Assembly: GCA_951406725.2 (NCBI GenBank)
Contig: OX597815.1
Coordinates: 8,618,001 to 8,682,000 of the forward strand
Direction of reading: 5' to 3'
Origin: Octopus vulgaris
Taxonomy: Eukaryota
DNA: 64,000 nt
Shown piece after piece: positions 38,501-60,100 of the stretch; position 1 is the first letter of the stretch; every line of letters starts with the position of its first letter. The position numbers were made by a program.

Positions 38501-41500
38501 CTCGTACACTGTTCACTTCCCAGACATTTGTACATTACTGCATATGCTTTATACGCACTTTGGACAAGTTGTGGTGCACCTGAGCACTGTAAACAATAAT
38601 TTCATTATTATTATTATTATTGTAAAAGACAAAGTTGCTGCTGCACCTGCTGAAGAAGGAAAGGAAAAGAAGGGTGACAGGAGATGAAGAGGGTTTATTT
38701 AATATGACACAGATTTTACTGTAAAGCATCATAAAAAAAATTTTAGGCATAGGAGTGGCTGTGGTAAGTAGCTTGCTTACCAACCACATGGTTCCGGGTT
38801 CAGTCCCACTGCGTGGCACCTTGCGCAAGTGTCTTCTACTATAGCCTCGGGCCAACCAAAGCCTTATGAGTGGATTTGGTAGACGGAAACTGAAAGAAGC
38901 CCGTCATATATACGCATACATACATAAATATATATGTATGTATGTGTGTGTGTATGTATACGTTTGTGTGTCTGTGTTTGTCCCCCCCCCCCACCATCGC
39001 TTAACAACCGATGCTGGAGTGTTTACGTCCGTCCCCATAACTTAGCGGTTTGGCAAAAGAGACCAATAGAATAAGTACTAGGCTTACAAAGAATAAGTCC
39101 TGGAGTCGATTTGCTCGACTAAAGGCAGTGCTCCAGCATGGCCACAGTCAAATGACTGAAACAAGTAAAAGAGTAAATATCAGAAAACACCTGGTGGAGA
39201 AGAAAAGGAAACAAAAGAAATATTAGAAGCCGATATGCTTTGTGTAATATTCTACAGGAAATTATGATTCTTTCCGCAAAATTTATGCATATTTAAATTT
39301 TAGACTATTCTAGAGCCTGTGTTTAATCTTGTTTTCATATTTATAAATACAATATTTTGTTAGAAAATGTTAGGAAGGTAGAGTTTTACAGAGTGTTGAT
39401 TATGTATAAACTACAGCATAATATTCAAGATGTATCATACAGGGTACAGTAGAGATGAGGACATGGTGTATTTGAGATATACAGAAGACATATATTTTAC
39501 TAGCAGTATCGCCCGGCGTTGCTCGGATTTGTAAAGGAAATAACTATATAAGCATTTTTAGAGAGTTACTTCCCTTATATAACCCGAGCAAAAATCATTA
39601 AAAATGCGGAAAAATGATAGTAAATTTTTTTTTTTAATCGTAGACTCATCGTAGATGCGCGCTAATACCCAGAAGGGCTCGATATGAATGACGACTATAA
39701 GATAGCCGCTTTTGGTTAAACTGCACCGCAAAATGTGGGAGTAGTTAGGAATCTAAATCGGAGGAGACAGAGTCTCACACACACAACTTCAATTTTATAT
39801 ATATTTTATGTACACGGTGTGTTGCATCATCATCATTGTTCGACCGTGGTCAAGACAATGGAATTTACTATGTTACGCCAGACTTCACGGTCCATCATAG
39901 CATTACGGAGGTCCTGTTGCTGGATGCTTGTATCCCTGGAGATTACATCAGGGTAGGAAAGTCTACGCCCTCTGATATCACGAGTAGATGGCTTCCAGAG
40001 AAGAAGAGTAGAAATTACCTCGTTTTCACCTCTACAACAATGTCCAGCAAACTGGACTCTTCTACCTTTCACAAGAGATGATACAGGTGGTGATTTCCCA
40101 TATATTTGTACTTTGGTTGGATGACGCTTCCACGAGAGATTTTGAGCTCTCATAAGGAGGTGAGTGTAAGTTCCATCCAACTGCCTCTCAAGCTTCTTTG
40201 ATAACGTCCAGGTTTCTGAGCCACATAGTAAAATTGGTTTGACTGTGGCTTTGAAGATTTTAAGTTTGAAATCTCTACTTAGATTTGATGACCAGATCTT
40301 ATGAATTTCATTACAGGCTGACCAGGCCATATCCTTTCTAGTTAGAAAATCTTTTTCAGAGGATGATATATATGACCCAAGATATTTGTAATCAGAAACA
40401 TATTTAAGAGTGTGTTGCAATGTAAACATAATGTTAGGTGAAGTGAGTATAGTACAGTATTGAGTTCAAGTTATCTGAGTTAGAACATGTTGTATGAGGC
40501 TTAGTTTAGATTGGGAGTGAAAGTTTGTTCTGTTGAGCCCAGTGGGTCTGATAGAAATTATTTTGTCCATTTGAATATTTTGTCCATTGTATTCTATTTC
40601 TTAAGTTTCTGTGGAGAAAGACAAAACTGCTGCTGAAAAAGAAGAAGAGAAAGAAGTAGAAAGAAGAGAAAGAAAAATAGGAAAGAAAGAAAGTGTGGAA
40701 AAAGGAATGGTATTGGGTGAGAAAAAAGGTATGTTTAATATGATATATATATATTCTATTGAAAAACTTTACTTGTGAAGACCTGTTGAGGCAGTGAAAA
40801 TCAAAATCGTAATCAATCAACATCAATGGAATTTGTAGCTGTGATACCAGTGCCGGTGGCACGTAAGAGAACCATCCGAATGTGGCAGTAGCCAGCGCTG
40901 CCCTGACTGGCCTCCATGCCGGTGGCACGTAAAAAGCACCAACCGATTGTGGCCGTTGCTAGCCTCGTCTGGTCTCCGTGCCAGTGGCACGTAAAAAGCA
41001 CCATTCGATCGTGGCCGTTTGCCAGCCTCGTCTGGCACCTGTGCCAGTGGCACGTAAAAAGCACCGTCCGATCGTGGCCGTTCGCCAGCCTCGTCTGGCA
41101 CCTGTGCTGGTGGCACGTAAAAAGCACCCACTACACTCACGGAGTGGTTGGCGTTAGGAAGGGCATCCAGCTGTAGAAACACTGCCAGATCTGACTGGAG
41201 CCTGGTGCAGCCTTCTGGCTTCCCAGACTCCAGTTGAACTGTCCAACCCATGCTAGCATGGAAAGCGGACGTTAAACGATGATGATGGTGATGATGTAAA
41301 GCATCATAAAATATCTTTAAAGAACAGAAATCAGCCAGCTTCATGTTGTTTTCCTATCAGCATGGAATGGACTTATTGATGCAGTGAAGATACAGATGTA
41401 GAATTATCCCTAATGCTCTTGACATGCATTGCATATAAAGTCAATGATATGTGATAGAGATTGATTCAAATAGGCTTGGTACAACTTTTTATGGATATAG

Positions 41501-57187: not shown

Positions 57188-60100
57188 TATGATAATATAT
57201 ATATATACACTTGTGTCAGAAATTAATTAGCACTTCTCAAATTTCTACATTAAATAGGTTAAATCAATTAACCTATGAGCTGTTCAAAACGTCTTACGCG
57301 ATGAGAAAACTTAGTATGGTGTGATTTCGGTCCTTGCGAGGCGCTACCTATATCTATTAAACAAAGGAAGTTTGTCTGCATCCGCACTCCAAGTTGTTGT
57401 TGCACTGCTATGTCAACATCATAAGGCTGTAGACTCTCAAACTGCTCTGCAAACAAAGTTACGTCATCGTTCTGTGCAACAGTGAACTCGCAACAAAGCA
57501 ATAGTTCGAGATATGGCCACTAGGTGACAGCACATACCTTGAGTGAAGAGCAAATCAAGGGTGCTAATTAATTTCTGACGGTAGTGTATATGTGAGTGTG
57601 TGTCTGTGTTTGTCCCCCTAGCATTGCTTGACAACCGATGCTGGTGTGTTTGTGTCTCTGTTACTTATCAATTTGGCAAAAGAGACTGATAGAATAAGTA
57701 CTGGGCTTACAAAAGAATAAGTCCTGGGGTCGAGTTGCTCGATTAAAGGCGGTGCTCCAGCATGGCCGCAGTCAAATGACTGAAACAAGTAAAAGAGAGA
57801 GTAAAAGAGAGTATAAACAACTTAGCGAGTTTTATACAGCTGTACCTAGATGGTTCGGTGTTGGCGCTGAACCTAGAAATGGAAGAGAGGGACCAACATA
57901 TTTCTTTCTTTCTTTCTCCTGTTTGCTTCTTTTTCGGTTGTCTTCTTCCTCCATCACACTACACATGTATGAAGTTTCATGTAGATTGGAAGTGAAGGTT
58001 TGTTGAATTGGATGCAGTGAGTTTAATAGAAAATACTTTATCCATTTGAATATTTTGTTAATTTTACTCTATTTCATAAGTTCCTAGAAAGAAACAAAAA
58101 GTTGCTGCACCTGCTAAAGAAGGAGAAGAAGGAGTGGAAGAAGGAGTGGAAGAAGGAAAGGAAGAAGTGGAAGAAGGAGTGGAAGAGAGAGAGGAAGAAG
58201 GAGAGGATAAAGAAATGGCGGTGGCTGTTAAAAAAGGTATGTTTAATATGATACATTCTCTACTGAAAAGCATCATGAAATTATCTTTCCCTGGTGTTTT
58301 CTTCTCCATGTTGAATACACAGCTGAGGGTGGAATTATTAATGTTGTGAAAAGACAGTTGCAGAGTTCTTGACATCCATTGCATAGAATTAAAGTCAATG
58401 CTATCTGGTAGATATTGATACAAAGAAGTTTGGTACAACTTTTTATAGAGCAAGCACTGCTTTGATGGAATTCTTTAATCTTCATTGATAATGACTTTTA
58501 TGTTAAGCGGTGCAAATTCTCTGAGTATCATCCCAACTGTTAATATTATTCTATTCTATATATTAAATATACAGCTCAGTTGAAAAGAAAAACAAACAAG
58601 ATTTCATTAACAACAGATAAATTTTAAAAATTCTTTAGTAATATTTATTTATCTTTATTTAAATTTTGGAATGTTTTAACATGATAGAATAATCCATGGT
58701 TGATCTTATTTTCCTTTTTATAGTTACAATAACCTGTCAGGAAATGCTAAAATAGTAATTTCATAGTTTGTAGATAATGTATGTACTACGGAATAGTATT
58801 CAAAATGAATCCTGTGGCAGGGATGAACAGCATTTTGTCAACAGGGGTGTCGCATCATATCATTTCCAAGTAGGATAAAACATATATGCATGAAATATTT
58901 CTTGCCCACTTTAAACTGAATTTTTTTGCAGTTCTTCTTAATCTTATTTGTCTTAGTATGAAAGTTTACATTAGGCTGGCATTTCTTTCAATGTTTCCAA
59001 ATGTACATTGAAAGAGAGAAGAAAGGAGGGATGAAATTAAATGTAAAATTAAAGCACAAGTTTAATAGGTGAGAAATGGTAAGGATAATAAATGGAAAAT
59101 TTGAGAAAAATTTTTGGTTTGTAAAAATTAGTAACCTAGAAACTCCTTGAGGGCCGCACAACAACATGTCAAGGGCCGCAGGTTGCCTATGCAAGCTGTA
59201 GGGTATTAAAGTGATGAGGAAAGATTGTATGTGGCATACATAGAAATCAAGTAAGATAGGAGGATAGGAAGCACTCCGTCGGTTATGACGACGAGGGTTC
59301 CAGTTGATCCGAATCAACAGAACAGCCTGCTCGTGAAATTAACGTGTAAGTGGCTGAGCACTCCACAGACACGTGCACCCTTAACGTAGTTCTCGGGGAT
59401 ATTCAACGTGACACAGAGAGTGACAAGGCCGGCCCTTTGAAATACAGGTACAACAGAAACAGGAAGTAAGAGTGAGAGAAAGCTGTGGTGAAAGAGTACA
59501 GCAGGGATCACCACCATCCCCTGCCGGAGCCTCGTGGGGCTTTAGGTGTTTTTGCTCAATAAACACTCACAACACCCGGTCTGGGAATCGAAACTGCGAT
59601 CCTACGACCACGAGTCCACTGCCCTAATCACTGGGCCATTGCCCTAACTACTGGGAATGCGGTGTGCTCTTCCTAGCAAGTATAGTGTATGAAACAGAAC
59701 ATGTTATTTTTGGTGTTCTGTAGAGTTTAGGATATGCTGTCGGTTGCAGCATGAACATGGTGTCAGGTGCAATGAGTATGGTGCAGAATTAAGGGCATGC
59801 TGTCTGCATTTGTTAGAACATGTATAAGGTTAAGTTTAGATCAGAAGTGGAAGTTTGTCGAGTTGGGTGCAGTGGGTCTGACAGAAAATATTACATTCAT
59901 TTGAATGTTTAATCCATTATATTCTATTCCATAAGTTCATAGAAAGAAGCACAAAGCTGGTGTTGCTGCATCTGAAGAAGAAGAAGGAGCAGAGAAAGAA
60001 GGAATGGCAGAAAGAGAGGAAAAAGAGATGGTGGTGGGTGAAGAAAAAGGTATGTTTAATATGATACATTTTTCTACTGAGAAACATCATAAAATTGTCT

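What the first reader, a model, noticed from the sequence alone, without database searches (positions are those of the whole stretch)
40606..60049. Hidden tandem array of eight symmetric, frame-preserving charged-repeat exons (PEVK-like cassette system)
Seen: eight paralogous segments each start after (c/t)wtaag|TT and end with AG|gt. Their lengths differ (123, 93, 117, 162, 141, 135, 156, 114 nt) but all are multiples of 3, phase 1-1 and stop-free, while the surrounding duplicated introns are full of indels and TE insertions. Most encode a basic head (VPRKK..), a variable acidic (E/G/V)n tract and a basic tail (..VKK). None is recovered as a complete unit in the ORF track. Known: phase-1 symmetric exon arrays build titin PEVK and similar elastic disordered regions and allow combinatorial splicing. 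Inference: this is a lineage-specific, still-expanding modular disordered domain whose length and charge could be tuned by splicing. Caveat: slippage in GAA-rich sequence favours 3n indels even without selection.
Basis: partly seen in the sequence, partly recalled or inferred. Interest (0 to 1): 0.85.

Follow-up and report, generated by a model that had tools for sequence, protein, structure and literature searches.

The report
Tandem array of charged cassette exons
Eight tandemly duplicated short exons, plus one broken copy, appear to encode glutamate-rich charged modules of an uncharacterised animal gene; this is a familiar way to build disordered protein regions, and whether the exons are used remains untested.

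Summary
Eight paralogous + strand segments sit at the stated coordinates with the stated lengths. Each follows an AG and precedes a GT, and each is stop-free only in phase 1-1.

Evidence that they are real coding exons:
- Composition-matched shuffles are open in a given frame only 1-9% of the time.
- T is 2% of codon position 1 against 19% at positions 2 and 3.
- A neutral model on the intron-flank tree expects about 5.4 nonsense and 3.7 splice-site hits; none is seen.
- The phase chains with two unique upstream exons, 2280-3195 and 16412-16704.
- A ninth copy at 38.0-38.7 kb is visibly dead.

Weak or negative points:
- 3n indels are largely explained by slippage.
- dN/dS is uninformative.
- The exons are no better conserved than their introns.
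- No homologue, Pfam family or PPAK match was found.
- No RNA data could be consulted.

Verdict: a probable tandem cassette-exon array encoding E/K/V/G-rich polyampholyte modules. It is PEVK-like in architecture only, and combinatorial splicing is unproven.

The parts
2280..3195 (+). Large unique upstream exon (916 nt, about 304 codons). It is K/E-rich, is modelled mostly as long helices, and runs from phase 1 at the acceptor to phase 2 at the donor.
   Evidence: 348-aa stop-to-stop ORF. Acceptor tttcttatttag|G and donor CTG|GTAAGA read. Only one frame is open (stops 24, 26, 0). Purine-rich like the array. AF2 single-sequence model: mean pLDDT 70.9, helices 77-158 and 162-219. The exon boundaries are inferred from consensus, not from RNA.
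16412..16704 (+). Second unique exon (293 nt), from phase 2 at the acceptor to phase 1 at the donor. It ends in G, as the array exons do.
   Evidence: Strong polypyrimidine tract plus tatag|G and GTG|GTAAGG. Only one frame is open (stops 12, 0, 7). No Pfam, PDB or Atlas match.
38006..38738 (+). Ninth unit, broken (pseudo-exon). The acceptor AG has become AA at 38079-38080. About 535 bp of tandem transposon-like sequence is inserted 8 nt into the exon. There is an in-frame TGA just before a weakened donor (GTTTAT).
   Evidence: Acceptor-profile hit 38006-38089 (E 8.8e-13) and donor-profile hit 38673-38738 (E 2.5e-07). Exon-profile hit 38625-38690 (E 4.2e-07) and its translation. Sequence read.
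40606..40728 (+). Array exon 1 (123 nt, 41 codons). It is the most divergent: it has no VxRKK head and a net charge of +1.
   Evidence: The downstream intron is interrupted by an insertion between 40772 and 41295.
42716..42808 (+). Array exon 2 (93 nt, 31 codons), net charge +4, donor AAG|GTAAGT.
46583..46699 (+). Array exon 3 (117 nt, 39 codons), net charge -7, donor AAG|GTAAGT.
48275..48436 (+). Array exon 4 (162 nt, 54 codons), the longest acidic tract, net charge -19. It ends TAG|GT.
   Evidence: (33-nt internal period).
54566..54706 (+). Array exon 5 (141 nt, 47 codons). Its splicing is possibly impaired. The donor is GTATCT (no G at +5). The conserved downstream intron, including the 24-mer, is missing. 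An insertion of about 845 bp lies 29 nt before the acceptor.
   Evidence: acceptor profile split between 53607-53691 and 54537-54587; no extended donor match.
55621..55755 (+). Array exon 6 (135 nt, 45 codons), one of the youngest pair with exon 7.
   Evidence: flanks 94-100% identical to E58081; sister taxa, support 98.
58081..58236 (+). Array exon 7 (156 nt, 52 codons).
   Evidence: AF2 with the 8-row alignment gives mean pLDDT 59.1.
59936..60049 (+). Array exon 8 (114 nt, 38 codons). Its upstream intron is 96-97% identical to that of E48275, but its exon head is only 55% identical.
42914..42937 (+). Conserved intronic 24-mer with a G-run, about 105 nt after the donor. The other copies are at 46805-46828, 48542-48565, 55839-55862, 58320-58343 and 60156-60179.
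   Evidence: Found in 6 of 8 units with 0-1 mismatch, and no match on the - strand. The 20-column window with TGAGGGTGG shows 1 parsimony step, against 8-14 in neighbouring intron windows. 2 changes were seen where 14.4 were expected: P=6.8e-05, or about 0.02 after correcting for window choice.
43548..44965 (-). Reverse-transcriptase (LINE-like) fragment inside the intron between exons 2 and 3. It is one of several transposon insertions that inflate the introns.
   Evidence: Pfam RVT_1 E=4.5e-12 for 44555-44965 (-). For 43956-44618 (-) E=1.1e-4, which is below the curated cut-off.

Best explanation
The region is a tandem array made by repeated duplication of a unit of about 1.7-2.5 kb, consisting of one short exon plus its intron. 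It lies in a + strand protein-coding gene whose other recognisable exons in the window are 2280-3195 and 16412-16704.

Each intact unit carries a cassette exon of 31-54 codons. Each exon starts with the last two bases of a Val codon and ends with its first base, so any exon can follow any other, or follow the 16.4-kb exon. The frame is kept and the junction residue is always Val.

Each exon encodes a polyampholyte module: a short basic head (V-P-R-K-K in most), an acidic E/G/V tract of variable length, and a short basic tail. Strung together, the modules would give a long, highly charged and probably unstructured segment behind a charged helical region.

Length changes arise by slippage within the GAR-rich tract and by unit duplication.

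Shown: paralogy, splice signals, frame, stop avoidance, phase chaining and a dead ninth copy. Inferred: that the exons are transcribed and spliced, that most of the eight are used, that inclusion is variable, and that the module acts as a spacer or entropic-spring-like charged linker.
For: 1. Structure. 8 of 8 units keep AG and GT, and all are 3n and open in one shared frame.

2. Openness is not a by-product of purine richness. Shuffled exons are open in a given frame with P=0.012-0.094 each, because T followed by two purines is usually a stop.

3. Codon-position signal. T is 2%/19%/19% and G is 69%/16%/22% at positions 1/2/3. Of 33 T-polymorphic alignment columns, 5 are at position 1, and all 5 are TCN or TTG codons, never a stop. 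The binomial P for 5 or fewer is 0.017.

4. Neutral expectation on the intron-flank tree (0.85 substitutions per site, kappa 4.9). About 5.36 nonsense-creating substitutions are expected (P of none 0.0047); on terminal branches alone 3.87 (P 0.021). About 3.69 hits on the four AG/GT bases are expected (P 0.025). Together, P is about 1.2e-4.

5. Splice-proximal intron is better conserved than distal intron: 33 of 39 invariant columns against 106 of 178, Fisher P=0.003. Donors are near-consensus: AAGGTA[AT]GT occurs 6 times on the + strand of the window, all at array exons.

6. Phases chain through two unique exons that each have a single open frame: 1->2, then 2->1, then 1-1.

7. Internal control. 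The ninth copy has lost its AG, carries an insertion and has an in-frame TGA. None of the 8 intact exons holds a transposon insertion, although their introns hold many.

8. Purine-rich + strand stretches occur only at the large exon and the 8 array exons.
Against: - No RNA evidence of any kind could be consulted.
- No related protein was found: 0 hits for one exon peptide (967 candidates scored), 0 of 1.84 billion representatives for the 8-exon profile, and 0 for the two unique exons.
- The exons are not better conserved than the flanking introns. Mean pairwise identity is 0.72 for the exon head and 0.82 for the tail, against 0.77-0.87 for intron and 0.95 next to the donor.
- Mismatches by codon position are 0.188/0.251/0.248, with no third-position excess. 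dN/dS is about 0.5 in all three + frames, so it carries no signal.
- The 3n lengths are expected in 8-44% of cases from slippage bias alone for 7 events.
- The copies share ancestry, and gene conversion could keep them alike. The neutral model borrows its rates from flanks that are themselves partly constrained.
- E54566 has a weakened donor.
Confidence: 0.65

Rival explanations
1. Only one or a few of the copies are real exons. The rest are recent, still-intact duplicates (pseudo-exons) that the spliceosome skips, kept similar by their youth or by gene conversion rather than by selection.
For: Amino-acid sequence shows no measurable constraint. The flanks of the youngest pair are 94-100% identical. 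One copy is already dead, and E54566 has lost G+5 of its donor and the conserved downstream intron. 3n indels are explicable by slippage.
Against: The older copies (E40606, E42716; terminal branches 0.24 and 0.17 substitutions per site) also keep AG, GT and the frame. On terminal branches alone 3.87 nonsense hits are expected and none is seen. The extended donor motif and the intronic 24-mer are conserved in 7 and 6 of the 8 units respectively.
Confidence: 0.2
2. The region is not coding at all. It is a local macrosatellite of about 1.7 kb whose unit happens to contain a GAA/GGA-type trinucleotide tract. The AG, GT and open frame are inherited from a single ancestral unit by chance.
For: The internal periods are all multiples of three (12, 21, 33 and 45 nt), so a fixed T phase could be inherited. 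No homologue or family match was found. The window is rich in other tandem arrays.
Against: The non-repetitive head and tail are in frame with consensus splice signals. T avoids codon position 1 among polymorphic columns too. The phase matches independent unique exons upstream. About 9 disabling hits are expected under neutrality and none is seen. The intron is most conserved right at the splice sites.
Confidence: 0.1
3. The coding strand is the - strand, and the segments encode Ser/Thr/Pro-rich (mucin-like) sequence.
For: Antisense ORFs of 94-157 aa run across six of the eight units. Two antisense frames are almost stop-free.
Against: Antisense openness is expected from composition alone: P is about 0.5 per exon per frame in shuffles. 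Antisense dN/dS is 0.77-1.05, no better than on the sense strand. The conserved consensus splice signals and the neighbouring unique exons are on the + strand. - strand splice sites were not examined.
Confidence: 0.03

Closest known systems
Titin PEVK region (PPAK and E-rich exons)
   Same: Many short, repetitive, tandemly duplicated exons encode a charged, unstructured segment. Expansion occurs by segmental duplication with transposons nearby, and standard gene finders miss the exons (PMC6469411, passages read). The array exons pass that paper's composition rule: P+E+V+K+A >= 0.54 and >= 12 residues, against 0.68-0.82 and 31-54 residues here.
   Different: Proline is 2.6% here, and glycine is 11%. 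No PPAK-type Pfam match was found for 0 of 8 peptides at E<=10. No immunoglobulin or fibronectin exons, or other titin context, were recognised in the window. The exons are longer and more variable than I recall for titin's roughly 28-residue modules. No sequence relatives were found.
Elastin gene exon organisation (recalled, not checked in a paper here)
   Same: As I recall it, all exons split the codon in the same way, with one base at the exon end and two at the next exon start. Cassette skipping therefore keeps the frame, as it would here.
   Different: Elastin alternates hydrophobic and cross-linking exons and is not a charged polyampholyte. There is no sequence similarity and no evidence of relatedness.
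Treacle (TCOF1) / Nopp140-type repeated acidic-basic exons (recalled, not checked here)
   Same: Tandem exons each encode one acidic cluster flanked by basic residues, giving an alternating-charge disordered protein.
   Different: Their acidic clusters are Ser/Asp/Glu-rich phosphorylation sites. Here serine is 2% and the tract is Glu/Gly/Val. No similarity was detected.

Membership tests
Titin PEVK exons | Composition: P+E+V+K(+A) ratio >= 0.54 over >= 12 residues (PEVK_Finder criteria, PMC6469411) | tested here: met
   8 of 8 exons have ratios of 0.68-0.82 and 31-54 residues. Criteria read.
Titin PEVK exons | Proline-rich PPAK-type motif | tested here: not met
   Proline is 2.6% overall and 0-5% per exon. 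0 of 8 peptides match any Pfam family at a meaningful level at E<=10; only three noise hits (E 0.77-8.2) for E48275. That Pfam holds a PPAK model is recalled.
Titin PEVK exons | Lies within a titin/connectin-like gene among Ig/Fn3 domain exons | tested here: inconclusive
   The two unique + strand exons have no Pfam match and no PDB match. Only 18 translations were scanned, not every ORF, and the gene may extend beyond the window.
Titin PEVK exons | Differential inclusion of exons between tissues | not testable with these tools
   No RNA-seq, cDNA or eukaryotic transcriptome collection was available.
Tandem exon-duplication array (symmetric cassette exons) | Exon and flanking intron are paralogous between neighbouring units | tested here: met
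   Repeat families D1-D18, alignments and unit-versus-window BLAST.
Tandem exon-duplication array (symmetric cassette exons) | Every copy keeps AG/GT, a length of 3n, the same phase at both ends and an open frame | tested here: met
   8 of 8. The 9th copy fails all of these.
Tandem exon-duplication array (symmetric cassette exons) | Copies are included in mature mRNA | not testable with these tools
   No expression data. There is only indirect evidence from stop avoidance and splice-site retention.
Mutually exclusive exon cluster with docking/selector RNA pairing | Alternative exons of near-equal length | tested here: not met
   Lengths range from 93 to 162 nt.
Mutually exclusive exon cluster with docking/selector RNA pairing | A docking site complementary to a conserved element in each unit | tested here: not met
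   The conserved 24-mer has 6 + strand copies and no reverse-complement match within 3 mismatches in the window. The 25 longest inverted repeats listed are pairs of the window's dispersed repeats. A site outside the window cannot be excluded.

The most novel reading that the evidence does not exclude
This is a taxon-restricted gene with no detectable relatives. It has recently built, and is still growing, a combinatorially spliced polyampholyte domain. Each duplicated unit carries its own conserved intronic control element (the G-run 24-mer about 105 nt after the donor, and the near-invariant extended donor). Exon number, and hence the length and net charge of the linker, would then be set tissue by tissue. 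This would be an independent, non-titin invention of the PEVK principle.
Probability: 0.15. Interest if true: 0.55.

Novelty: new member of a known kind. Interest (0 to 1): 0.35.

Why it matters
If the exons are expressed, this is a clean and young example of how tandem exon duplication plus slippage builds and resizes a charged disordered domain. It comes with a dead copy as an internal neutral control and with candidate intronic splicing elements duplicated along with each exon. It also marks a gene segment that ORF-based and probably standard gene-model annotation would miss. It does not change any general principle, because such arrays are well known from titin and other genes.

Tried and rejected
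Searches that found nothing:
- Homology searches, done exon by exon: one exon peptite against longer proteins, a profile of the 8 peptides against 1.84 billion representatives, the large exon and the 16.4-kb exon. The three word-index searches covered only proteins up to 2000 residues, so a giant protein would be missed. Low-complexity words also crowd out true relatives (7999 candidates scored).
- ESM Atlas, twice: no usable hit.
- PDB sequences, twice: none.
- Pfam: none for the exons.
- Rfam and tRNA scans of the window: none.

Tests that carried no signal:
- dN/dS per pair was 0.27-1.13. It proved uninformative because all three + frames give about 0.5.
- 3n indels were rejected as strong evidence.

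Ideas dropped:
- An extra lost exon between 48.7 and 53.2 kb. The BLAST layout fits one intron with three insertions and a local duplication of about 220 nt, and the exon profile finds nothing there.
- A docking site for the intronic 24-mer: none in the window.

Structure models (AF2):
- One exon peptide gave mean pLDDT 59.1 with a single low-confidence helix. This shows no confident fold, which is not proof of disorder.
- The large exon gave long helices at pLDDT 77-91 from a single sequence, with pTM 0.22.

Literature:
- Searches for a described cephalopod PEVK-like gene or for phase rules gave nothing usable. One search found 1 paper, on muscle ultrastructure, which I saw only in the listing.
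- Only PMC6469411 was read, as passages. Its supplements are closed.

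
Full report
**What is there**

On the + strand they start at 40606, 42716, 46583, 48275, 54566, 55621, 58081 and 59936. Their lengths are 123, 93, 117, 162, 141, 135, 156 and 114 nt.

Each is preceded by [CT][AT]TAAG, begins with TT, and ends with G followed by GT. 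Frame offset 2 is open in 8 of 8, offset 1 in 0 of 8 and offset 0 in 6 of 8. With offset 2, the last G of one exon and the first TT of the next always make a Val codon.

The exons and several hundred bases of intron on each side are paralogous.

**How specific the signals are**

- The 18-nt acceptor consensus gives 10 matches against 2.07 expected, and 0 of 100 shuffles reached 10. The matches are the 8 exons, a degenerate ninth copy and one unrelated 3-mismatch site.
- The 22-nt donor consensus finds 7 of the 8 exons and nothing else.
- An exon-only profile finds the 8 exons plus one degenerate copy at E 4.2e-07. The next best hit has E 0.15.
- Purine-rich + strand stretches occur only at these exons and at a large exon near 2.4-3.2 kb.

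**The ninth copy**

A further unit lies at 38006-38738. It has four defects:
- Its acceptor AG has become AA.
- About 535 bp of tandem transposon-like sequence sits 8 nt into the exon.
- The homologous frame ends in a TGA.
- The donor is weakened to GTTTAT.

It shows what an unselected copy of similar age looks like. Its acceptor-proximal intron is 67-77% identical to the others, like that of the two oldest intact units.

**Is the open frame more than chance?**

Purine richness does not make these segments easy to keep open. With about 14% T among purines, a T at codon position 1 is usually a stop. Composition-matched shuffles are open in a given frame with P of only 0.012-0.094 per exon.

In the real exons, T makes up 2%, 19% and 19% of codon positions 1, 2 and 3, and G makes up 69% of position 1. 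Among 33 alignment columns polymorphic for T, 5 are at position 1. All 5 are TCN or TTG codons, and none is a stop. The binomial P for 5 or fewer is 0.017.

I also built a neutral expectation from a tree of the intron flanks, leaving out the 20 nt next to each splice site. The tree is 0.85 substitutions per site with kappa 4.9. On that tree:
- 5.36 nonsense-creating substitutions are expected in the eight exons (P of none 0.0047).
- On terminal branches alone, 3.87 are expected (P 0.021).
- 3.69 hits on the four AG/GT bases are expected (P 0.025).
- Taken together, P is about 1.2e-4.

Intron columns within 20 nt of the splice sites are invariant in 33 of 39 cases, against 106 of 178 further out (Fisher P=0.003). 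These tests are the main argument that the frame and the splice sites are being maintained.

**What does not support selection**

- The exon sequence itself is not conserved. Mean pairwise identity is 0.72 for the first 42 nt and 0.82 for the last 30 nt. The introns give 0.77-0.87, and the 20 nt after the donor give 0.95.
- Mismatches by codon position are 0.188, 0.251 and 0.248, so there is no third-position excess.
- dN/dS is about 0.5 in all three + frames, so it says nothing.
- All lengths are 3n, but 70-89% of short direct repeats inside the exons lie at 3n offsets. For seven independent slippage events, all-3n would then occur in 8-44% of cases.
- The copies share ancestry and may undergo gene conversion.
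- The flanks used as a neutral yardstick are partly constrained, which makes the test conservative in rate. It remains model-dependent.

**Gene context**

Two unique + strand exons can be read from consensus signals.

| Exon | Acceptor | Donor | Open frames | Phase |
|---|---|---|---|---|
| 2280-3195 | tttcttatttag\|G | CTG\|GTAAGA | one (stops 24, 26, 0) | 1 to 2 |
| 16412-16704 | tatag\|G | GTG\|GTAAGG | one (stops 12, 0, 7) | 2 to 1, ends in G |

The phases therefore chain into the phase 1-1 array. Two independent matches have a chance of roughly 1 in 9.

The large exon is K/E-rich. It is modelled, from a single sequence, as long helices with block-mean pLDDT 77-91 over about residues 81-210, and pTM 0.22.

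What the joined protein would match therefore stays open.

No downstream exon or end of the gene was identified before 64000.

**What the exons encode**

The eight peptides (347 residues in all) are 34% E, 17% K, 15% V, 11% G, 7% A and 2.6% P. 58% of residues are charged, and the net charge is -0.14 per residue.

7 of 8 have a basic head (V-x-R-K-K; +3 or +4 over ten residues). The middle tract ranges from +1 to -23, and there is a short, mostly basic tail.

An AlphaFold2 model of one exon with the 8-row alignment has mean pLDDT 59.1, with one low-confidence helix. That means no confident fold.

The most likely role, by inference only, is a charged flexible spacer or spring-like linker. Its length and net charge would depend on how many modules are present.

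**History of the array**

- The units form two main groups. E55621 and E58081 are the youngest pair: sister taxa with support 98 and flanks 94-100% identical.
- E40606 and E42716 are the oldest, with terminal branches of 0.24 and 0.17.
- Introns are inflated by insertions, including a reverse-transcriptase fragment at 43548-44965 on the - strand (RVT_1 E=4.5e-12) and a dispersed element present in several units.
- E54566 has lost the whole conserved 5' part of its downstream intron, right after GTATC. It also has an insertion of about 845 bp lying 29 nt before its acceptor. It may be on its way out.
- E59936 shares a 96-97% identical upstream intron with E48275, but only 55% of its exon head. 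This points to a recombination or conversion boundary at the acceptor, or to very fast change in the exon. I could not tell which.

**Conserved intron elements**

Apart from the extended donor (AAG|GTA[AT]GTTTAATAT[AG]ATACA in 7 of 8 units), a 24-mer with a G-run lies about 105 nt after the donor in 6 of 8 units, with 0-1 mismatch. Its 20-column window shows 1 parsimony step, against 8-14 in neighbouring windows. Two changes were seen where 14.4 were expected, giving P of about 0.02 after allowing for the choice of window.

There is no complementary copy in the window. A docking/selector scheme for mutually exclusive splicing is therefore not supported, and the unequal exon lengths argue against it as well. 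An intronic splicing enhancer is a reasonable guess from general knowledge of G-runs. It is untested.

**Comparison with known systems**

The architecture is that of titin's PEVK region as described in PMC6469411 (passages read): many short, repetitive, duplicated exons that gene finders miss, with transposon-associated segmental duplication. All 8 exons pass that paper's composition rule, at 0.68-0.82 against 0.54.

Membership fails, however, where it could be tested:
- The peptides are proline-poor.
- No peptide matches a Pfam family.
- No titin-like domains were recognised.
- No relatives were found at all.

Elastin's uniform codon-splitting exons and treacle's acidic/basic repeat exons are similar in principle, but I cite them from memory only.

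The rivals are scored in their own section: only some copies used, a non-coding macrosatellite, or antisense coding. Antisense openness is expected from composition, with P about 0.5 per exon and frame.

**Limits**

- No eukaryotic genome, transcriptome or RNA-seq resource was available.
- The word-index protein searches were limited to proteins of at most 2000 residues.
Nothing suggested that the window is human.
- The supplements of PMC6469411, which might list exon phases, are closed.

**Verdict**

It is a new member of a known kind and of moderate interest. RNA evidence would decide it.

Noticed in passing
38006-38738: A ninth, broken copy of the exon unit. The acceptor AG has become AA, about 535 bp of two tandem transposon-like pieces is inserted in the exon head, there is an in-frame TGA, and the donor is weakened.
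   Followed up: yes
42914-42937, 46805-46828, 48542-48565, 55839-55862, 58320-58343, 60156-60179: A near-invariant intronic 24-mer with a G-run lies about 105 nt after the donor in 6 of 8 units. It is more conserved than the exons, and no complementary partner exists in the window.
   Followed up: partly
59936-59977 versus 48275-48316: E59936 and E48275 have 96-97% identical upstream introns, but their exon heads are only 55% identical. The similarity breaks sharply at the acceptor, and this is unexplained (conversion boundary or rapid exon change).
   Followed up: partly
2957-3057: An in-frame 27-nt repeat (3.7 copies, 85% matches) inside the large exon, encoding a 9-residue K-D-[DE]-G-Q-x-L-G-A unit.
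   Followed up: no
24974-28572: A 3.6-kb array of an 11-13-nt unit (about 290 copies). GC is about 20% over 26-28 kb.
   Followed up: no
29203-30035 and 30115-30964: Two blocks of a 169-nt satellite, about 5 copies each, with 96-97% matches.
   Followed up: no
7116-7955, 18067-18222, 31153-32995, 35551-35725, 40917-41926, 43126-43354, 61852-62013: A minisatellite with a 48-68-nt unit (128 nt in one block) containing GGTGGCACGTAAAAAGCACC recurs on both strands across the window. It is probably part of a dispersed element, and it produces long spurious ORFs.
   Followed up: no
13616-14131: A trinucleotide-based array of about 500 bp (CGT/CAT units) that gives long poly-Asp, Ser or Val pseudo-ORFs in several frames.
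   Followed up: no
60290-60535: A long near-perfect inverted repeat (foldback or MITE-like) just downstream of the last array exon, seen when reading the sequence.
   Followed up: no
54521-54995, 55604-55993, 58064-58474 (- strand): Antisense ORFs of 129-157 aa run across exon plus intron, encoding Ser/Thr/Pro-rich strings. Their openness is expected from composition.
   Followed up: yes
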